From assembly GCA_947628015.1 (NCBI GenBank), contig CANQYG010000001.1, positions 1 through 40,467 on the forward strand: a stretch of DNA of 40,467 bases, in the 5' to 3' direction. The DNA comes from an uncultured Clostridia bacterium (GTDB lineage Bacteria; Bacillota; Clostridia; TANB77; CAG-508). Both the position numbers and the translations under genes were made by a program. This document shows positions 3,011 through 24,642 of this stretch, piece after piece; the stretch's first letter is position 1, and each line of letters starts with the position of its first letter. The notes below the pieces were generated by a model. The model had not been told where the DNA came from and made no database searches. It saw only the letters and a program-made list of their open reading frames with translations.

Positions 3011-3370
3011 CTAAACCTTATATTTTATACTTGAAAATTGCTCTTTTGTTACTATTGATTTAATATTATAGACTTTATCCCTAACTTTTTGAAATTCATA
3101 TTGAGTTAATCCATATTTGCCAACTATTGTAAAATATTTTCTTCCTTTTGATATTTCTATAACTAAACAACCATTTACATAATCTCCTTTTTCTATTAAA
3201 TCTATTAAATACTGCTTATGCTTCTTTATATCTTCTAACCAAAATCTTTTTTCTTTGCATTTAACAATAGATGTTTCTTTATCATCTTCATAACCTAATA
3301 ATTTTTCAAATTTATCTATTTGTCCTTTTTTAGTTCTTACATATTCTCCAACTTCAATTTTATCGTTCAT
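3011..3370 (-). CDS. hypothetical phage protein
   Basis: 119-aa ORF. Its start overlaps the stop of the upstream gene (ATGA-type junction at 3370). Confidence 0.5.
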   Translation of the reverse strand: MNDKIEVGEYVRTKKGQIDKFEKLLGYEDDKETSIVKCKEKRFWLEDIKKHKQYLIDLIEKGDYVNGCLVIEISKGRKYFTIVGKYGLTQYEFQKVRDKVYNIKSIVTKEQFSSIKYKV

Positions 3371-6437: not shown

Positions 6438-6460
6438 ATGTGTTCATTTGCTTGGTCGGG

Positions 6461-6505
6461 TGCTTGTGCGTTTGCTTGTGCATTTGCCTGTGCGTTTGCT
6501 TGGTC
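6461..6505. repeat. 12-nt tandem repeat, about 3.5 copies
   Basis: tgcttgtgcgtt / tgcttgtgcatt / tgcctgtgcgtt / tgcttggtc. It encodes the QANAQANAQANAQA stretch on the minus strand. Confidence 0.7.
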
Positions 6506-6857
6506 ATATTGAATAGGCAATGTATATTTTGCAAGTGCTGATTGATTATTTCCTTTAAAATAATTTATATATCCGCTTCTGAACTAATTCATTTCTTTTT
6601 CTTTGTAGTGATGATAAATCTAAATTAGTTTTTGAAAGTAATACATTATTCGCAATTTTGATAGTATTGCTCCAGTTTGCTTTGTAAAACATATGTAATA
6701 TCACTTGATATAAACATATAGCTTTACTAGAAAGAGGATTATAATCTAAATTGGAATAAAAGTTCTCTAGTTGATTAATATATTTTTCTTCAGCTTCCAA
6801 CGAAAGTCTCCTTTCTACTTAATAGGAGCTAGTTTTTTGTCTAGCTTCTGATGATTA

Positions 6858-11120: not shown

Positions 11121-11456
11121 ATGAATAGATTAAAAGAACTAAGATTAGAAAAGGGATTACTACAATCTGATATAGCTAAAATAATAGATAAAAGTGATAG
11201 AATTGTTGGTTTTTATGAAACTGAAGAAAGAGATATGAGCACAGAAACATTATCAAAATTAGCTGACTTTTTCAATGTATCCATAGATTATCTTTTAGGA
11301 AAATCTGATATAAGGAATCCAATAAAAATAGATGATATTTCTTTTGCTAATCATAATGGGATAGATACTTCTGGATTAGATAAAGAAGAAATTGATGAAA
11401 TAAAAAAACAAGTTGAATATATGCGTTGGAAAAAAGAACAAGATAAGAAAAAATAA
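11121..11456 (+). CDS. XRE-family phage repressor (CI-like)
   Basis: 111 aa. LLQSDIAKIIDKSDRIVGFYETEERDMSTETLSKLADFFNVSIDYLLG is an XRE HTH. An ImmA-like gene follows it. Confidence 0.8.
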   Translation: MNRLKELRLEKGLLQSDIAKIIDKSDRIVGFYETEERDMSTETLSKLADFFNVSIDYLLGKSDIRNPIKIDDISFANHNGIDTSGLDKEEIDEIKKQVEYMRWKKEQDKKK

Positions 11457-11473
11457 TTAATTTTGGAGTAACA

Positions 11474-11908
11474 ATGAATTTAGGTAATTTATATGAAATA
11501 ATAGATAGAGAAAATATTGAAATAAATAATTCCAAAATGAAAAACACTAAAGCTAGAATAATTAATGATTGTTATACTTGTATATTTATTGATTATTCAA
11601 AAATCAACTCTTATATTGAAGAAAAATGTATTCTTGCTGAAGAATTAGGTCATTATTATTATGATGGTTATTATTCAATAAATTCTAGTCAGCAATTTGT
11701 TGATAAACAAGAATATAAGGCTCAAAAATGGAAAGCTATACATCTATGTTCTCCACAATCGATTTTAAGATGTTTTCAAAAAGGAATATATAACTTATAT
11801 GATATTGCAGAAGAATTACAAATAGAACCTAATATTGTAGCTTTTGCATATCAATATTATTCTAATAATAATATTTTTAAAAATGACTATAAGATGTATA
11901 AATTTTAG
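11474..11908 (+). CDS. ImmA/IrrE-family (DUF955-like) protein with atypical metal motif
   Basis: 144 aa directly downstream of the repressor. CILAEELGHYYYD sits where the family has HExxH, and there is a later E-x(n)-A/W helix (QEYKAQKWKAIHLCSPQSIL). The first His is replaced by Glu. Confidence 0.6.
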   Translation: MNLGNLYEIIDRENIEINNSKMKNTKARIINDCYTCIFIDYSKINSYIEEKCILAEELGHYYYDGYYSINSSQQFVDKQEYKAQKWKAIHLCSPQSILRCFQKGIYNLYDIAEELQIEPNIVAFAYQYYSNNNIFKNDYKMYKF

Positions 11909-11957
11909 TTATTAATGTTTTATAACAATAAATATAAAAATATAAGGAGGAAAATTT

Positions 11958-12506
11958 ATGTCAGAAGAACAAATATCTAAAAAGAAACCTATTTATACTA
12001 AATGGTGGTTTTGGCTTATTATTATTGTTATTATTTTAGCTGCATTAGGCAATGGATTCAGTTCTAATACAACGCAAAATGAAACTAGCAATTTAACTAA
12101 TGAAAATGTAACTTCTAATATATCTACTTTATCAGGCACTATTGCAAAAGATTATTTTAATATCTTGTGTGAAGTAGCTGGAATGCACTCAAATGAACCT
12201 CAAATAATTGATAATGAAATTATTTATGAATCTACTAATCAAGATTATAATATTAAAATTGTAGCAGATAAGACAAGTGATGAAATAGAAAATATTAAAA
12301 TTACTACTTTTAAAGAAAATGATTATGAAAATTTCTTTCTTGCTATTTCTAGACTTGAATATAGTGGTTCAAACCGATCTACTTTATTTAATTGGATAAA
12401 TGATAATTTAGGAAAAGAATCTAATACATCTATTGGAAACGCTAATTTTTCGTTATATTTAACTGATACTAATAATCCTATTTTAGATGTATCTGTAAAT
12501 GATTAA
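11958..12506 (+). CDS. membrane-anchored extracytoplasmic protein (prophage cargo)
   Basis: 182 aa. The N-terminal TM is WWFWLIIIVIILAALG, then a Ser/Asn/Thr-rich linker and a globular domain. Strong RBS AAGGAGG. Confidence 0.55.
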   Translation: MSEEQISKKKPIYTKWWFWLIIIVIILAALGNGFSSNTTQNETSNLTNENVTSNISTLSGTIAKDYFNILCEVAGMHSNEPQIIDNEIIYESTNQDYNIKIVADKTSDEIENIKITTFKENDYENFFLAISRLEYSGSNRSTLFNWINDNLGKESNTSIGNANFSLYLTDTNNPILDVSVND

Positions 12507-12565
12507 TAATATAATTTTATACATAAAATTAAAAATATATATTTAAAATTAATGGAGGAAAAATT

Positions 12566-12811
12566 ATGCAATGTCCTAAATGTAACAGTAATAATGTAAA
12601 CACTCAAATTGTTCAAACTGAAGGAAAAACTAAAAAACACGGAAATGGTATTGGAGGAAATCTAAATAATGCTGCTAGAGGTTTAACTGCTATGTGTACA
12701 TTAGGAATGTCAAATTTAGTATGGAAAAAATCAAAAGGAAATGAAAAAACATCTTTCAAGAATGAAACTATGTGTGTATGTCAAAATTGTGGTCATTCTT
12801 GGAAATTATAA
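12566..12811 (+). CDS. double zinc-ribbon small protein (prophage cargo)
   Basis: 81 aa with CPKC at the N-terminus and CQNCGH at the C-terminus. RBS GGAGG. Confidence 0.55.
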   Translation: MQCPKCNSNNVNTQIVQTEGKTKKHGNGIGGNLNNAARGLTAMCTLGMSNLVWKKSKGNEKTSFKNETMCVCQNCGHSWKL

Positions 12812-12854
12812 TAAAATAAGAACAGAAATATATTAAATAAAAGGACTTAATAAT

Positions 12855-13568
12855 ATGGATGAATATAATGTATATATTGACGAAAGTGGAGACGAAGGAA
12901 TAAAGAGAGGTAGCAAATGGTTTATTTTATCTGCAATAATTGTAAAAAAAGACTATGATTTAACATTATCTAATAAAATACTAAAAATAAAAAGTGCTAT
13001 GAATATGAACAGAAAAGATCAATTACATTGGAACAAAATATTAAAATATGATAAAAAAATACAAATAATATATGATTTAATTGCAGAAAACTTTAAAATT
13101 ATACATATAGCAATTAATACTTATGAAATAAATAAATTAAAATCCAAGGATTTGTATCCATATTTTATGAGTTACTTAATAGAACGAGTTTCTTATTATA
13201 TTACCAATAATAAAGGTATATGTAATATTTTTATAAGTACAAGAAATGAAAATAGTTCAGAAAAAAATAACTATTTAAAAAATGAATTAACAAATAAAAG
13301 ACATTATCATCATATTATGACAAAATGTATTAAAGATATTAAATTTATAGATAATAGAGATAGAAATTTATTGCAATTGGCAGATGTTTGTTGTAGTTCT
13401 TTTGCCCAAGCAATAAAAAATAATACTAACCAAGAATGGGAATATGTTATAAAACTAAAATCAAATATATGGAATTATAAAGGAAAAATAATAGGATATG
13501 GAATAAAATTTTATCCTCCTATTGAGTGGTTTAAAAACTTTCCTAATATGCTTAATTTAATGACATAA
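12855..13568 (+). CDS. DUF3800-family protein (prophage cargo)
   Basis: 237 aa. The N-terminus MDEYNVYIDESGDEG and the later LLQLADVCCSSF match the DUF3800 pattern (Y-x-DESG ... LQ-x-AD). Confidence 0.65.
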   Translation: MDEYNVYIDESGDEGIKRGSKWFILSAIIVKKDYDLTLSNKILKIKSAMNMNRKDQLHWNKILKYDKKIQIIYDLIAENFKIIHIAINTYEINKLKSKDLYPYFMSYLIERVSYYITNNKGICNIFISTRNENSSEKNNYLKNELTNKRHYHHIMTKCIKDIKFIDNRDRNLLQLADVCCSSFAQAIKNNTNQEWEYVIKLKSNIWNYKGKIIGYGIKFYPPIEWFKNFPNMLNLMT

Positions 13569-13570
13569 GA

Positions 13571-13670
13571 TAAGAGTAATTCCCCCGATTACGTTATCCC
13601 ATACGTCAAAGCGTACTGCCAATAGACTAGCTATCGACCCATAATTGATTCGGCGAACGAATTACTCTTA
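13571..13670. ncRNA. GC-rich structured element closed by a perfect 12-bp stem (candidate DUF3800-associated RNA)
   Basis: taagagtaattc (13571-13582) pairs perfectly with gaattactctta (13659-13670) around 76 nt. That interior is conspicuously G+C-rich for this window and has several internal helices (tacg/cgta, gcc-caat/attg-ggc). It starts 3 nt after the DUF3800 stop. Confidence 0.5.
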
Positions 13671-13741
13671 CTATATATATTATACACTTTTTATAAAAAA
13701 ATGCAAGTTTTTTATAAAAATAAAAAAATCTAATGAAATTT

Positions 13742-13783
13742 AAAAAAGATAATGTATAAAGTTTGGCGACCACATACATTATC
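13742..13783 (-). terminator. hairpin plus T-run, oriented for minus-strand transcripts
   Basis: gataatgtat (13748-13757) and atacattatc (13774-13783) form a 10-bp perfect stem. On the minus strand it is followed by TTTTTT (A-run 13742-13747 on plus). Confidence 0.4.
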
Positions 13784-13876
13784 TAACCTATCTACTTGTT
13801 TTAGTAGTTTGTTATATTATACTATAATAAACCTTCTAAATCAAGTATGAAACAGTTGTTTAGGAGGGCATTTTTT

Positions 13877-15004
13877 ATGGCAAAAAAGACTAATTTTAAA
13901 GTTAATGGAAAAAATTATTATAGGGTGACTAAAACTATTGGTCATAAGTCTAATGGAACACCTATTAGAAAAACTTTTTATGGCTCTGGAATAAATGAAG
14001 CTAATCAAAAAGCTGATGAATATATGAATAATATAAAAAATGGGTTAATAAATAATTATGATAATGTTATTCTTTCTGATTTAATGTATTCTTGGTTATT
14101 TGATTTCTTATATAATTCATCTAAAATTAAGGCTTCAACATTTGATAGATATGAGGGTGTTTATAGAAATTATATTAAGGATTCTGAAATATCAGGATTA
14201 AAAATTATACAGATAAATAATTTAAAGCTTCAAAAATATTATAATAATTTAAGTGATAAAAATTATAGCTATTCACAATTAAAAACTTTAAATAAAATAT
14301 TAAAAACTTTTTTCAATTGGTGCATAGATAATAATTATTTATTAAAAAATCCTTGCTTAAAAATTAATTTAAAGGGAAATAAAAATAATATTATTAATTC
14401 TTCTGATAAAAAGATAGAAATATTTTCAGAATCAGAAATTAAAATCATTAAGAATAAAATAATAAATAATAAATATGAATTATTAATTTTATTAGCTTTT
14501 GCAACAGGATTAAGACAAGGAGAGTTACTTGCTTTAGATTGGGAAAATATAGACTTGTTGAATGAAACATTATGTGTAAAAAAATCTGTTAAAGAAGTTT
14601 ATGTTTATAATGAAAAAATGGAAAGGCATATAGAAAGTGTTTTTCAATCACCTAAAAGTGTAAACTCTATTAGAACTGTACCTATTCCATCTTACATTGT
14701 TCCTAAATTAAATGCTATACCTAATAAAGTTGGTTTGCTATTTAATGATGATGGAAAACCAATAAAGGCTAAGCGAATTTTTGATTATTGGAAAAGTTTA
14801 TTGAACGATTGTAATATCCCTTATAAAAAATTTCATTCTATAAGACATACTTATGCATCAATATTATTGAAAAATGGTGTAGATATAGAGACTGTTGCAG
14901 AACTAATGGGACACTCTGCAATATCAATTACTCAAATATACTTACATAGTTCTAATGATCAAAAGAAATTAGCTACACAAAAAATAAATTACTTATTCAA
15001 TTAA
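13877..15004 (+). CDS. int: tyrosine recombinase / phage integrase
   Basis: C-terminal HSIRHTYASILLKNGVDIETVAELMGHSAISITQIYLH (H-x-x-R ... H ... Y), with ATGLRQGELLALDW upstream. The likely start is ATG 13877 (MAKKTNFKVNGKNYYRV) after TAGGAGGG; the ORF track starts at 13847. It lies adjacent to a tRNA 3' end. Confidence 0.9.
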   Translation: MAKKTNFKVNGKNYYRVTKTIGHKSNGTPIRKTFYGSGINEANQKADEYMNNIKNGLINNYDNVILSDLMYSWLFDFLYNSSKIKASTFDRYEGVYRNYIKDSEISGLKIIQINNLKLQKYYNNLSDKNYSYSQLKTLNKILKTFFNWCIDNNYLLKNPCLKINLKGNKNNIINSSDKKIEIFSESEIKIIKNKIINNKYELLILLAFATGLRQGELLALDWENIDLLNETLCVKKSVKEVYVYNEKMERHIESVFQSPKSVNSIRTVPIPSYIVPKLNAIPNKVGLLFNDDGKPIKAKRIFDYWKSLLNDCNIPYKKFHSIRHTYASILLKNGVDIETVAELMGHSAISITQIYLHSSNDQKKLATQKINYLFN

Positions 15005-15093: not shown

Positions 15094-15167
15094 TGGAGGC
15101 GCCTATCGGAGTCGGACCGATCATCAGAGTTTTGCAGACTCGTGCCTTACCGCTTGGCTAAGGCGCC
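15094..15167 (-). tRNA. tRNA-Cys (GCA)
   Basis: Minus strand GGCGCCTTAGCCAAGCGGTAAGGCACGAGTCTGCAAAACTCTGATGATCGGTCCGACTCCGATAGGCGCCTCCA. It has a 7-bp acceptor stem, anticodon loop CTGCAAA, T-arm ATCGG-TCCGACT-CCGAT and an encoded CCA. The T-loop has C at position 55. Confidence 0.85.
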
Positions 15168-15207
15168 ATTTTATTATAATAACTATTTATTAGGGTAAAA
15201 AATAATA

Positions 15208-15281
15208 TGGAGCAGGTAACGGGAATCGGACCCGTAACTTAACCTTGGCAAGGTTATGTTTTACCACTAAACTATACCTGC
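15208..15281 (-). tRNA. tRNA-Gly (GCC)
   Basis: Minus strand GCAGGTATAGTTTAGTGGTAAAACATAACCTTGCCAAGGTTAAGTTACGGGTCCGATTCCCGTTACCTGCTCCA. All four stems are perfectly paired, the anticodon loop is TTGCCAA and CCA is encoded. The T-loop TCCGATT has C at position 55. Confidence 0.88.
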
Positions 15282-22661: not shown

Positions 22662-24642
22662 CTATATGATATTTCCATTATTATTACCTGTATCATTACC
22701 ACTTGTAGAATCATTGTTATTGCTATTATTATAATTGTAATTATTTCTCCTTCTTCTACGTCCATTTCCTTTTGGAATCTTATTTTTAATACTTCCAGTA
22801 AATCTTTGGAATGTACTATATTCACTTATATTTCCATCTTCTATATCTGATATTAATTTATTAAATTGTTTTGGAATTTTTTTCTCATCTATTCCATTAT
22901 CAATAAATTTCTGTTCCATTTTTTGCATTTGTTTTGCTAATTCTATTTCTGTTTCTGTTTGAGGAGTTAAACTTCCATCAGCAAAATGTAAAGCATTTTT
23001 ATATAACTCTTCGCTTGTCAAATTAGGATTTTCATTCTTATACTTATTAACTGCTTTAGCTAACTTATGTTTTAATATTCTTGTATCATTTGCTTTCGAA
23101 AAACTACGTCCCATACACCAGCCAGCAGTAACTCCTGCAAATCCTGTCTTTGTATCTCCTCCGAGACCTAGACCTAATCCACCAAACAACATAGCTCCTG
23201 CAATTCTAGCATTTGCTCCAATATAAGCTCTTCCTGCACCTCTTAATACAGCTCCAACTCTTCCTTTACCTTTGCCTTTTCTACTTGAACTTTCTCCTGT
23301 TGAACTTGCAACTGGTATATTCGTGTTTCCGCTATTATTATTTTGGTTTCCATTAGAACTGTTTCCACCAGAATTGTTTCCACTTCTATTTTGATTTTGC
23401 CCTGTTCCTCCTGTATTTACATTATTGCCTGTGTTACCATTATTTCCATTATTTCCAGCATTCCTATTATTTCTAGCGTTGTTATTTTGATTTGAATTAT
23501 TGCCACCATTTTTAGAACCAAATCCAAATCTTCCTCCTCCAGAGCCTCCTTTTGATTTTTTGCCACCAGACATTACTTTATTTAGAATCATTCCACCAAT
23601 TGCTGCATTGGCAACTGTCTTGCCCATACTTTGACTTTCAAAGTGGAATATGTGTTTTACAATATCTTCAGCTGTAAATATAAATAACATTGTCATTATA
23701 GCTACAACAGCATTTGAAAGTCCTGCTCCTTCAGCCCATCCATCTCTTACCAATAAATCAATAGATGTTTGAGCTAACACTCTATATGATATACAATGGA
23801 ATGGCTGTATTAAAATATTATATACATATTCTTTAAACCATACATTAAGTGCTTGTGACCTTCCATCGCCCATTTTGTCAATAGAATATGTAATAGTTAC
23901 AAGTGGTGATATTACTATTAAAAATGCCAAAGTAATCATACGTTTTATGTATGCAAGTAAAAATACAAATGTAATAGCTTGCAATAATATATATACTATT
24001 GCACATCCCATTCCAGTTGTAAATGAACCGATTACCAGCTGCTTCATCTCTAAATACCTTTGTAATACTTCCAGTTGCTGAGTCACTTAGTCCTGTTGAT
24101 AAAACATCAATAAATGCATTATTAATATTTATTGTAAATATCATTATGTAATGTAGTATAAATAAAAGTGCTAAACTTGTAAGCCAATCATAAAGCATTG
24201 TTTTATATTTTGCTTTATCTTCTGCTATTGTAGATATTGCCATTCTAATTCCTACATATACTGCAATTATAGCAAGTGCAATAGCTGCAACATTTCGTAT
24301 TGATGTGTACCAAATTGCAACATTTTGTCTAATTGTACGTGCTACTTCATTAGTAGTATTAAAGTCGAAGAAGTTAATATCTAACAAAGGAATTTTATCT
24401 TTATTAAATAAAATTTCTTCTAATTCCAATGTTGCACCATTACCACCTGCAAAGAACTTTAAAATGAATCCTATTATTTCACCTAAAATTATTAATATCC
24501 ATTTAGCAGGTAGAAGTAACATTCCAACAACACCATCAACAATATCTCCTGCTTCTACTGCATAGCATCTTCCACTCAGAAAAAATATCATTATAAATAT
24601 GACTAAAATTGAAATTAGTATTTTTTTCTTCTTATCTTTCAT
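22662..24642 (-). pseudogene. VirB6/TrbL-like polytopic membrane protein with Asn/Gly-rich tail, split by a frame change between 23878 and 24086
   Basis: ORF 23878-24642 carries the N-terminal half (signal peptide, LLDINFFDF, RTIRQNVAIWYTSIRNVAAIALAIIAVYVGIRMAISTIAEDKAKYK). ORF 22662-24086 carries the C-terminal half (ISPLVTITYSIDKMGDGRSQALNVWFKEYVYNILIQPFH). In the intact paralogues at 29426-30592 and 24677-26935 the two halves are colinear. Confidence 0.7.

What the first reader, a model, noticed from the sequence alone, without database searches (positions are those of the whole stretch)
13571..13670. GC-rich, tightly closed structured element immediately after the DUF3800 gene
A 100-nt segment starts 3 nt after the DUF3800 stop. 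It is closed by a perfect 12-bp helix (taagagtaattc / gaattactctta). Its 76-nt interior is far more G+C-rich than the surrounding DNA and offers several nested helices. No ORF fits, and it is neither a tRNA nor a simple terminator, since no U-run follows. Comparative genomics has previously described a set of candidate structured RNA motifs named after their association with DUF3800 genes, often in prophage-like contexts. Their function is unknown. This could be a member or a new variant, which would make DUF3800 plus RNA a two-part prophage cargo module.
Basis: partly seen in the sequence, partly recalled or inferred. Interest (0 to 1): 0.65.

Follow-up and report, generated by a model that had tools for sequence, protein, structure and literature searches.

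The report
Known DUF3800-VII small RNA gene
The GC-rich hairpin after the DUF3800 gene is a clear copy of an already catalogued but functionally unexplained small RNA (Rfam DUF3800-VII), made from the opposite strand with its own promoter, and it always travels with an RNase H-like nuclease gene on prophages and plasmids.

Summary
Positions 13571-13670 carry a perfect 12-bp closing helix around a 76-nt interior of 47% G+C, in a window of 25.6% G+C.

The element is a full-length member of Rfam RF02967 (DUF3800-VII RNA): 53.1 bits against a gathering score of 36.2. It lies on the MINUS strand, convergent with the DUF3800 gene.

I collected 96 related loci, from gut Clostridia prophages to Ralstonia phage RsoM1USA and Burkholderia/Cupriavidus conjugative plasmids. 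About 89 carry the motif:
- There is one copy per locus, always antisense to the gene.
- In most loci it starts -5 to +11 nt from the stop codon.
- Covariation is strong: 93% of cells paired against about 40% in slid controls, and 31 of 34 pairs show compensatory changes.
- G-U outnumbers A-C 100 to 11, which fixes the strand.
- A near-consensus sigma-70-type promoter ends 7-13 nt upstream, and a U-tract follows P1.

It is therefore an autonomous ~100-nt sRNA gene. The protein models as an RNase HII-like nuclease with its acidic motifs conserved. No third gene is conserved. The pair sits in the prophage lysogeny module next to the integrase and tRNA-Cys.

Function is untested. My best inference is a cognate protein-binding RNA, antitoxin-like as in RCd22/AbiF or AvcI/AvcD, that controls the nuclease in a defence or addiction module. 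The family is already known, so interest is moderate.

The parts
13571..13670 (-). DUF3800-VII sRNA (Rfam RF02967), read 13670->13571. The Rfam match covers 13665..13571; here P1 is extended by 5 bp to 12 bp.
   Evidence: cmscan gives 53.1 bits against GA 36.2 over the full model 1-90. My own models R1 and R2 give 118 and 98 bits. Covariation is shown. Strand is set by the G-U/A-C ratio.
13659..13670 (-). P1 5' strand (UAAGAGUAAUUC). It pairs with 13571-13582 (GAAUUACUCUUA).
   Evidence: Read directly from the sequence. All 12 P1 pairs show compensatory changes among relatives.
13584..13655 (-). Core of the fold. P2 pairs C13655 and 13650-13653 with 13584-13588. P3 pairs 13639-13644 with 13589-13594, and its innermost pair is G.A in this subfamily. 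Hairpin A pairs 13632-13638 with 13618-13624. Hairpin B pairs 13612-13615 with 13602-13605. The conserved unpaired bases are AG 13616-13617, UGGGAUA 13595-13601 and G 13583.
   Evidence: The structure comes from the Rfam alignment, and coordinates were checked. Unpaired bases conserved at 93% or more are listed.
13679..13706 (-). Predicted sigma-70/SigA-type promoter of the sRNA: -35 TTGCAT (13706-13701), 16-nt spacer, -10 TATAAT (13684-13679). The -10 element ends 8 nt before the first base of P1.
   Evidence: Sequence. The equivalent promoter is present in 63 of 65 distinct upstream regions at 9/12 or better. It reaches 10/12 or better in 44 of 65, against 2.6% of control windows. Its position is conserved (sequences).
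13563..13570 (-). U-rich 3' tail (UCUUAUGU) directly after P1. It is antisense to the stop codon and last codon of the DUF3800 gene, and is a probable termination point.
   Evidence: at least 5 U in the first 8 nt after the motif in 53 of 65 relatives, against 16% of controls. The tail is weaker in this window (5 of 8).
12855..13568 (+). DUF3800 gene (237 aa), a predicted RNase HII-like nuclease. It is the conserved partner of the sRNA.
   Evidence: Pfam PF12686, 65 bits. The AF2 model has pLDDT 91. The best PDB fold match is RNase HII 1EKE, E=5.8e-6, TM 0.53. The conserved motifs are IDESGDEG, ER and LLQLAD.
13847..15004 (+). Context: a tyrosine integrase, followed by tRNA-Cys (15094-15167, -) and tRNA-Gly (15208-15281, -). 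This is the prophage end.
   Evidence: Pfam Phage_integrase, 93 bits. An integrase or recombinase is the next gene in 20 of 52 related loci.
11121..12811 (+). Context: the lysogeny module upstream on the same strand as DUF3800. It holds an HTH_3 repressor (11121-11456), an ImmA/IrrE-like peptidase (11474-11908), a superinfection-exclusion-like protein (11958-12506) and a small Zn-ribbon protein (12566-12811).

Best explanation
The element is a gene for a ~100-nt small RNA of the known DUF3800-VII family. It is transcribed from the minus strand (about 13672/13670 to about 13571-13563) from its own strong constitutive sigma-70-type promoter. Transcription probably ends at the U-rich tail that follows the closing helix P1, right against the stop codon of the convergent DUF3800 gene.

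The RNA folds into a long P1-P2-P3 stack that carries two hairpins. The stems vary with compensation, while the junction bases stay almost invariant from Firmicutes to Proteobacteria (G18, A58-G59, C64, U75-G76-G77-G78, G91-G94 in alignment A6 columns).

Together with the RNase HII-like DUF3800 nuclease it forms a self-contained two-gene cargo module of prophages, integrative elements and conjugative plasmids. Here it lies in the lysogeny region between the repressor and the integrase.

Inferred mechanism: the abundant sRNA binds its cognate DUF3800 protein through the conserved junction and holds the nuclease in check, as a type III-like RNA antitoxin would. When sRNA supply collapses, through phage-induced transcription shut-off or loss of the element, the nuclease is freed. 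The outcome would be abortive infection, superinfection exclusion or addiction. The 3' overlap with the DUF3800 mRNA may add antisense dampening of expression.

Graded confidence:
- Family membership: at least 0.95.
- Independent minus-strand sRNA gene: about 0.85.
- Acts through its cognate DUF3800 protein: about 0.6.
- Inhibitory, antitoxin-like role in defence or addiction: about 0.35-0.4.

The single confidence figure given for this explanation (0.45) refers to the whole statement including the inferred mechanism.
For: Shown here:
- The Rfam RF02967 match covers the full model at 53.1 bits against GA 36.2.
- The motif is found once per locus, always on the strand opposite the DUF3800 gene. 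Model R2 finds it in 83 loci. Rfam or R2 finds it in 5 more, and one contig cuts it off at its end.
- These loci include Ralstonia phage RsoM1USA (73 bits, 9 nt after the stop) and two conjugative plasmids. Protein identity falls to about 24%.
- The gap to the stop codon is -5 to +11 nt in most loci.
- Covariation: 93.4% of cells paired against 36-45% in slid controls, 31 of 34 pairs with double changes, and 0 of 500 shuffles reaching the observed values.
- Single-sequence MFE folds recover 74% of the consensus pairs. The motif strand is the more stable in 53 of 56 sequences.
- G-U/U-G 100 against A-C/C-A 11 in paired cells.
- The promoter and U-tail are conserved in position.
- The junction bases are conserved.
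- The protein has an RNase HII-like fold with conserved acidic motifs.
- No conserved third gene exists. The neighbours are integrases, recombinases and repressors.

From the literature:
- Eleven unrelated RNA structures associate with DUF3800 genes. For DUF3800-I the RNA lies on either side and in either orientation, which points to a trans, protein-level partnership (PMC5737381).
- DUF3800 is the accessory or effector domain of type VII retrons, another nucleic-acid-plus-nuclease system (PMC7736814).
- Another protein-associated motif, abiF/RCd22, proved to be a protein-binding RNA antitoxin of a prophage Abi toxin (PMC12373285).
- AvcI/AvcD shows that a single structured sRNA can restrain an enzyme until transcription stops (PMC10511110).
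- A strain-specific DUF3800 gene scored as essential alongside antitoxins in Legionella Tn-seq (10.1101/2020.10.01.323287).
Against: - No expression, binding, toxicity or phage-challenge data exist for any DUF3800-VII locus. The library holds no functional study.
- PADLOC, PHROGs and NCBIfam have no model that hits this protein.
- The strictly fixed convergent, abutting arrangement is not required by a purely trans protein-binding role. It fits cis-antisense control at least as well. In some loci the ORF runs about 25 nt into the sRNA gene.
- The Legionella result (protein gene essential) would fit better if the protein were the protective partner. That suggests the direction of control could be the reverse of what I propose.
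- In this window the U-tail is weak (5 of 8 U), and P1 closes a 76-nt multibranch interior, which is an unusual geometry for an intrinsic terminator.
- The covariation counts come from model-fitted alignments. A plain MAFFT/RNAalifold run on 21 divergent sequences recovered only P2.
Confidence: 0.45

Rival explanations
1. Cis-antisense (type I-like) regulator. The sRNA acts mainly by pairing with the 3' end or read-through 3' UTR of the convergent DUF3800 mRNA. It could also act by transcriptional interference from its strong promoter. Either way it would trigger duplex cleavage and limit nuclease expression, with no specific protein binding needed.
For: - The orientation is invariant and the sRNA abuts the stop codon (-5 to +11 nt) in all motif-bearing loci with a detectable ORF.
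- The ORF extends about 25 nt into the sRNA gene in L050, L053 and L057, so overlap of the transcripts is obligatory there.
- No plus-strand terminator lies between the stop codon and the sRNA gene, so the mRNA should carry the full complement.
- Precedent (from my own knowledge): prophage type I toxin-antitoxin pairs of Bacillus with 3'-overlapping convergent RNAs.
Against: - Perfect complementarity comes free from the shared DNA, so antisense action cannot explain selection for compensatory stem changes or for invariant unpaired junction bases.
- Other DUF3800 RNA classes occur upstream, on the same strand or on either side (PMC5737381; DUF3800-VIII in L091). A shared function therefore cannot depend on 3' antisense geometry.
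- The partner is a 237-aa soluble nuclease, not a small membrane peptide.
Confidence: 0.2
2. Positive RNA cofactor. The sRNA is a structural or activating subunit of a DUF3800 ribonucleoprotein, acting as scaffold, sensor or substrate-recognition element. In one variant the protein's job is to process or degrade the RNA, so that the protein is the protective partner. In either case the RNA does not act as an inhibitor.
For: - The co-inheritance, conserved junction and independent strong promoter fit this reading as well as the main one.
- The RNase H-fold family includes many enzymes directed by RNA or by hybrids, and DUF3800 appears as an accessory to Cas12a2/a3 and Cas13 loci (PMC10910872, PMC12669027, PMC13594972).
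- In Legionella Tn-seq the DUF3800 gene itself scored as essential (10.1101/2020.10.01.323287).
Against: - The RNA has no variable single-stranded segment that looks like a guide. The only hypervariable part is the loop of hairpin A.
- L087 keeps an intact sRNA beside a frameshifted DUF3800 gene. That is tolerated more easily if the RNA is harmless or protective, but it is a single metagenomic contig.
Confidence: 0.2
3. Not a functional RNA. The element would be a DNA-level site (recombination, attachment or origin site) or merely a structured transcription terminator or insulator between the DUF3800 and integrase genes.
For: - It lies near the integrase and the prophage end.
- P1 followed by a U-rich tail resembles a terminator.
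Against: - The strand asymmetry (G-U 100 against A-C 11) and the 8 kcal/mol strand bias point to a single-stranded fold of one strand.
- A dedicated promoter is conserved at a fixed distance.
- The association is with DUF3800, not with integrases: only 20 of 52 loci have a recombinase next door, and plasmid copies lie beside unrelated genes.
- A terminator needs neither two internal hairpins nor invariant junction bases.
- The attachment site is expected at tRNA-Cys, beyond the integrase.
Confidence: 0.03

Closest known systems
Rfam RF02967, DUF3800-VII RNA (Weinberg et al. 2017, PMC5737381)
   Same: The match covers the full model and scores above the gathering score. The helices, the conserved CAG, UGGGAU and GGGG bases, and the neighbouring DUF3800 gene are all the same. 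This is the family the element belongs to.
   Different: There are only small lineage traits. P1 is lengthened to 12 bp, using what is the U-rich tail in the consensus. The innermost P3 pair is G.A instead of G-C. Composition is AT-rich. No function is known for the family.
RCd22 / AbiF of the C. difficile phi027 prophage (abiF motif RF03085; PMC12373285)
   Same: Both are ~100-nt structured RNAs that carry an Rfam motif named after the protein gene it accompanies. Both are prophage-borne in Clostridia, with a SigA promoter and a terminator. RCd22 was shown experimentally to bind and neutralise its toxic protein partner in cis and in trans. It is the best functional precedent.
   Different: RCd22 lies upstream on the same strand and is co-transcribed with abiF. 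Its partner has an Abi_2/HEPN-like fold, not an RNase H fold. Its motif is a short duplicated hairpin, not a multi-helix fold. Nothing comparable has been tested for DUF3800-VII.
AvcI/AvcD type III toxin-antitoxin defence (PMC10511110)
   Same: A single, non-repetitive, abundant and labile sRNA directly inhibits an enzyme. Phage-induced transcription shut-off releases the enzyme.
   Different: The toxin is a dCTP/dCMP deaminase. The RNA is longer (about 170-280 nt) and unrelated in sequence and structure.
Type VII retrons (RT + ncRNA/msDNA + DUF3800; PMC7736814)
   Same: They share the DUF3800 RNase H2-like domain, here too paired with a dedicated structured nucleic acid on mobile or defence loci.
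   Different: None of the ORFs characterised around the module in the window is a reverse transcriptase, and no RT family was among the 25 most frequent in the neighbour scans. There are no msr/msd features. The nucleic-acid partner here is a plain transcript.
Prophage type I toxin-antitoxin pairs with convergent 3'-overlapping RNAs (e.g. Bacillus txpA/RatA, bsrG/SR4; from my own knowledge)
   Same: Transcription is convergent with 3' overlap of the RNA and the partner mRNA, and the pair sits on a prophage.
   Different: Those toxins are small hydrophobic peptides. There, RNA-RNA pairing is the mechanism, and a conserved junction core is not the main feature.

Membership tests
Rfam RF02967 DUF3800-VII RNA | Covariance-model score at or above the curated gathering score (36.2 bits) over the whole model | tested here: met
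   53.1 bits over model positions 1-90 of 90, E=1e-9. E=3.5e-8 for the whole window. The default-filter gathering scan missed the hit.
Rfam RF02967 DUF3800-VII RNA | Consensus fold (P1, P2, P3 enclosing two hairpins) supported by covariation | tested here: met
   All helices are present in the window. In 56 distinct sequences 93.4% of cells are paired and 31 of 34 pairs show double changes; slid controls give 36-45% paired. Caveat: the alignment was fitted to the model.
Rfam RF02967 DUF3800-VII RNA | Conserved unpaired bases (GCGC at P2, CAG between the hairpins, UGGGAU after hairpin B, GGGG before the P1 3' strand) | tested here: met
   The window has CGCC, CAG, UGGGAU and GGGGG at the expected places. 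These columns are 88-100% conserved across the set.
Rfam RF02967 DUF3800-VII RNA | Genomic association with a DUF3800 (PF12686) gene | tested here: met
   The adjacent ORF scores 65 bits to PF12686. The motif starts 2 nt after its stop codon.
Rfam RF02967 DUF3800-VII RNA | Exists as a discrete transcript | not testable with these tools
   Only indirect support: a conserved promoter, a U-tail and the strand bias.
Type III toxin-antitoxin systems | The RNA binds and neutralises a toxic protein partner | not testable with these tools
   This needs toxicity-rescue, pull-down or EMSA experiments.
Type III toxin-antitoxin systems (classical ToxIN/CptIN/TenpIN type) | The antitoxin is a tandem array of short repeats upstream of the toxin gene on the same strand, and the toxin processes it | tested here: not met
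   There are no tandem repeats in 12500-14000. The RNA is a single copy, downstream and on the opposite strand. The element may work like a type III system, but it is not a member of the classical families.
Type I toxin-antitoxin systems | The toxin is a small hydrophobic peptide, and the antisense RNA overlaps its mRNA | tested here: not met
   The partner is a 237-aa protein with a globular RNase HII-like fold. Only the convergent 3' overlap is shared.
Type VII retron | A reverse transcriptase gene and an msr/msd ncRNA next to DUF3800 | tested here: not met
   The neighbours in the window are an HTH repressor, an ImmA-like protein, a Sie-like protein, a Zn-ribbon protein and an integrase. 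No RT family was among the 25 most frequent families shown for the flanking ORFs of related loci. Only the nearest ORF on each side was scanned.

The most novel reading that the evidence does not exclude
DUF3800-VII sRNA plus its RNase HII-like nuclease would be an uncharacterised, very compact RNA-protein immunity or addiction system of prophages and plasmids. It would be a new type III-like toxin-antitoxin or abortive-infection family. Its toxin would have an RNase H fold, and its antitoxin would be a single multi-helix sRNA encoded tail-to-tail with the toxin gene. That would also give the first functional explanation for the eleven 'DUF3800' RNA motif classes described in 2017.
Probability: 0.35. 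Interest if true: 0.7.

Novelty: already known. Interest (0 to 1): 0.35.

Why it matters
The RNA family has been catalogued since 2017, so this instance is not a discovery in itself. It still touches an open question. Eleven unrelated RNA folds accompany DUF3800 nuclease genes on mobile elements, the same domain appears in type VII retrons and beside Cas12a2/a3 and Cas13 loci, and nobody has shown what the RNA-protein pair does.

The comparative picture assembled here turns the family into a small, cleanly delimited and directly testable two-gene module of about 1 kb:
- The orientation is fixed tail-to-tail.
- The RNA has its own strong promoter.
- The junction core is invariant.
- No third gene is conserved.
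- The module sits in lysogeny or defence positions, and on an isolated phage (RsoM1USA) and on sequenced plasmids.

If it proves to be an RNA-restrained nuclease, it would add a new toxin fold to RNA-antitoxin defence systems.

Tried and rejected
- **Rfam gathering scan of the whole window.** It returned only the two tRNAs. This was a filter miss, not a true negative. The permissive mode recovered the 53-bit hit.
Rejected. The MFE is -21.4 against -30.5 kcal/mol for the minus strand. There is no Rfam hit on the plus strand, the G-U/A-C ratio is 100 to 11, and the minus strand is the more stable in 53 of 56 relatives.
- **tRNA or tmRNA.** None found in the element.
- **Simple terminator scan.** It found nothing, because P1 encloses a large interior. 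The U-tail was only evident comparatively.
- **MAFFT plus RNAalifold on 21 divergent members.** Only P2 was recovered, because sequence alignment fails at this divergence. The covariation evidence therefore rests on model-fitted alignments plus slid controls and single-sequence folds.
- **PADLOC, PHROGs and NCBIfam for the DUF3800 protein.** No hits.
- **PDB sequence search.** No relative found.
- **blastn of the element against isolated phages.** No match. Only the protein route found RsoM1USA.
- **Search for a repeat of the tRNA-Cys end, or a second motif copy, in the window.** None found.
- **Search for a conserved third gene.** None found.
- **Literature.** No functional study of any DUF3800 RNA turned up. 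One 2026 preprint that mentions DUF3800 could not be opened. The supplement of the 2017 paper is not held.
- **Retron, classical type III and type I TA membership.** Each fails a defining feature; see the membership table.

Full report
**1. The observation**

The window sequence at 13571-13670 is as described. A perfect 12-bp inverted repeat (taagagtaattc / gaattactctta) encloses 76 nt. It begins at the third base after the TAA stop (13566-13568) of a 237-aa ORF (12855-13568, +). That ORF matches Pfam DUF3800 at 65 bits.

The interior is 47.4% G+C and the window is 25.6%. Only 0.19% of 76-nt windows are that G+C-rich; the tRNA-Cys region is among the few others.

The helix by itself is not unusual in this AT-rich DNA, which holds 57 inverted repeats of at least 11 nt within 150 nt. 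Both strands fold about 3.4 sd better than shuffles. The case therefore rests on family match and comparative data.

**2. Identity**

A default Rfam scan of the whole window listed only tRNA-Cys and tRNA-Gly. With permissive filters the element matches RF02967, DUF3800-VII RNA. The match covers the whole model at 53.1 bits, against a gathering score of 36.2. The E-value is 1e-9 for the local stretch and 3.5e-8 for the whole window. The match is on the minus strand, 13665..13571.

The 12-bp helix is the family's 7-bp P1 lengthened by five pairs. The rest of the fold follows the family: P2, P3, two hairpins, and the conserved CAG, UGGGAU and GGGG bases. In this lineage the innermost P3 pair is G.A.

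**3. Comparative evidence**

I collected DUF3800 homologues and their flanks from several sources:
- 9 species genomes, all uncultured gut Clostridia or Bacilli MAGs
- 6 viral contigs
- 77 metagenome contigs
- 2 isolated phages
- 2 conjugative plasmids

A covariance model built from six close copies, then rebuilt from 77 hits, finds the motif in 83 sources. Rfam or the model finds it in five more (L014, L092, L086, L095, L096). One further contig (L073) is cut off inside it.

There is one copy per locus. It is always on the strand opposite the DUF3800 gene, and there are no hits elsewhere in 472 kb. Its 3' end lies -5 to +11 nt from the stop codon in most loci. In L050, L053 and L057 the ORF runs about 25 nt into the motif.

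The loci without the motif fall into a few groups:
- truncated contigs or gene fragments (L061, L068, L084, L088, L090, L091)
- one gene with a different C-terminus (L063)
- a 21%-identical mycobacteriophage protein (L094)

The arrangement spans protein identities down to about 24% and reaches Betaproteobacteria. Ralstonia phage RsoM1USA has the motif at 73 bits, 9 nt after the stop. Plasmids pBPSE01 and pRK1-1 have it 7-10 nt after the stop.

**4. Structure and strand**

On 56 distinct sequences, 93.4% of cells form standard pairs and 31 of 34 pairs show changes on both sides. No shuffle out of 500 reaches the observed values. Sliding the partners by 1-3 columns drops pairing to 36-45% (similar).

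These alignments are fitted to the model, so two further checks were made:
- Single-sequence MFE folds, which use no alignment, recover on average 74% of the consensus pairs.
- The Rfam model, built by others from other sequences, imposes the same helices.

A plain MAFFT/RNAalifold run on 21 very divergent members recovered only P2, which limits the independence of the test.

The strand is settled by three results:
- Paired cells hold 100 G-U/U-G against 11 A-C/C-A.
- The motif strand is the more stable in 53 of 56 sequences, by 8.3 kcal/mol on average.
- The transcription signals lie on that strand.

**5. Transcription signals**

A sigma-70-type promoter lies upstream on the motif strand. It scores at least 9/12 in 63 of 65 distinct flanks. 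It scores at least 10/12 in 44 of 65, against 2.6% of control windows from the same loci. In most loci it reads TTGACA-17-TAtAAT, and its -10 element ends 7-13 nt before P1.

In the window it is TTGCAT (13706-13701), a 16-nt spacer, then TATAAT (13684-13679), ending 8 nt before 13670.

Directly after P1, 53 of 65 flanks have at least 5 U in 8 nt, against 16% of controls. The window has the weaker UCUUAUGU.

The element is therefore best read as an autonomous ~100-nt sRNA gene set tail-to-tail against the DUF3800 gene. The promoter and terminator are predictions, not measurements.

**6. The partner and the context**

The DUF3800 protein has no sequence relative in the PDB. Its AlphaFold2 model is confident (pLDDT 91, pTM 0.90). 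Its best structural match is archaeal RNase HII 1EKE (E=5.8e-6, TM 0.53). Among viral models it matches a phage DUF3800 protein and, weakly, RNases H. This agrees with published modelling (PMC7736814, PMC10910872). The acidic motifs IDESGDEG, ER and LLQLAD are conserved, so a catalytically active nuclease is likely.

The flanking genes are not conserved. The next gene downstream is an integrase or serine recombinase in 20 of 52 loci, and otherwise assorted host genes. Upstream genes are varied, with S24/HTH repressors in 6 of 48.

In the window the order is: HTH repressor, ImmA-like peptidase, superinfection-exclusion-like protein, Zn-ribbon protein, DUF3800, sRNA (-), integrase, tRNA-Cys. The module thus lies in the lysogeny region at the prophage end, where accessory or defence genes expressed from the prophage are typically found.

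**7. Mechanism (inferred)**

The library holds no functional study. The 2017 description explicitly offers no hypothesis (PMC5737381).

I commit to a cognate protein-binding RNA that restrains the nuclease, working like a type III antitoxin. Release would follow loss of sRNA supply and would give abortive infection, exclusion or addiction.

Reasons:
- The selection pattern (compensated stems, invariant junction) is that of a folded recognition surface, not of an antisense sequence.
- The strong independent promoter fits a stoichiometric, short-lived regulator.
- Eleven different RNA folds accompany DUF3800 genes. For DUF3800-I the RNA lies on either side and either strand (PMC5737381), and DUF3800-VIII lies upstream on the same strand in L091. 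The shared logic must therefore act in trans.
- RCd22/AbiF (PMC12373285) and AvcI/AvcD (PMC10511110) are direct precedents. Type VII retrons pair the same domain with another structured nucleic acid (PMC7736814).
- A DUF3800 gene behaved as essential among antitoxins in a Legionella Tn-seq study (10.1101/2020.10.01.323287).

Graded confidence:
- Family membership: at least 0.95.
- sRNA gene on the minus strand: about 0.85.
- Acts with the DUF3800 protein: about 0.6.
- Inhibitory, antitoxin-like role: about 0.35-0.4.

Rival explanations:
- Cis-antisense control through the 3' overlap (0.2). The invariant geometry favours it. The covariation pattern and the other motif classes weigh against it.
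- An activating or scaffold RNA, or a protein that protects against the RNA (0.2). The Legionella result leans this way.
- A DNA site or a mere terminator (0.03).

**8. Novelty and verdict**

The family has been in Rfam since the 2017 survey, so the finding is already known as a kind. This analysis adds a sharper anatomy: the fixed tail-to-tail arrangement, the promoter, the U-tail, the junction core, the two-gene autonomy, and the presence on an isolated phage and on plasmids. It also adds a testable mechanism.

Interest is 0.35. The most novel reading not excluded is a new RNA-restrained RNase H-fold defence or addiction system, at probability about 0.35 and interest about 0.7 if true.

Noticed in passing
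window 13571-13665 (method): The Rfam scan in 'gathering' mode with default filters missed a hit that scores 17 bits above the family's gathering score. Only the permissive 'evalue' mode found it. The same happened for L001, L002, L003 and L006. AT-rich members of this family are easily lost to the filters.
   Followed up: yes
L013 299-466 (+): A FuFi-1 RNA (RF02986, 143.7 bits), another unexplained motif from 2017, lies about 2 kb upstream of a DUF3800 gene on a 59-kb viral contig. That gene also has DUF3800-VII downstream.
   Followed up: no
L091 63-130 (+): A DUF3800-VIII RNA (RF03075, 56.7 bits) lies upstream of, and on the same strand as, a DUF3800 N-terminal fragment. This is a different RNA class in a different geometry beside a related gene.
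   Followed up: no
L050, L053, L057 (about 3190-3240): The DUF3800 ORF extends about 25 nt into the sRNA gene. The C-terminus ...KSELSPD* is encoded antisense to the P1 3' strand and the GGGG bases. Protein-coding and RNA-structure constraints therefore overlap, and overlap of mRNA and sRNA is obligatory.
   Followed up: partly
L087 2501-3205: The DUF3800 reading frame is broken by frameshifts, while the adjacent sRNA motif is intact (85.9 bits). It could be an orphan RNA after loss of the nuclease, or an assembly error.
   Followed up: no
window 13783-13859: An AT-rich near-palindrome overlaps the start of the integrase gene. It gives weak matches to a plant miRNA hairpin model on both strands, which are chance-level. 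It may be an integrase regulatory or arm-type site.
   Followed up: no
window 11958-12506 (+): A 182-aa protein matches PHROG superinfection-exclusion families (phrog_4980 and phrog_8545, E about 1e-6). It is a second likely exclusion or defence gene in the same lysogeny module, two genes upstream of DUF3800.
   Followed up: no
window 15094-15281 (-): tRNA-Cys and tRNA-Gly lie directly after the integrase gene, so the prophage is probably integrated at the 3' end of tRNA-Cys. No repeat of that end is present elsewhere in the window, so the other prophage boundary lies outside it.
   Followed up: partly
L094 (Mycobacterium phage Mask gp48, locus 1995-2729): A distant DUF3800-like gene (21% identity) sits between the immunity repressor/HTH gene and the IrrE-like and integrase genes. 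This is the same relative position as in the window. No recognisable RNA motif was found by Rfam or by model R2.
   Followed up: partly
L063 235-1250: This DUF3800 homologue has a different and much longer C-terminal region, and no DUF3800-VII motif downstream. Among close homologues with an intact gene 3' end and downstream sequence, it is the only locus that lacks the motif.
   Followed up: no
window 6442-6525 and 23090-23201: These are the other stretches of unusually high G+C in the window, by the same 76-nt criterion as the element. Both lie inside long minus-strand ORFs, and neither has an Rfam match.
   Followed up: partly
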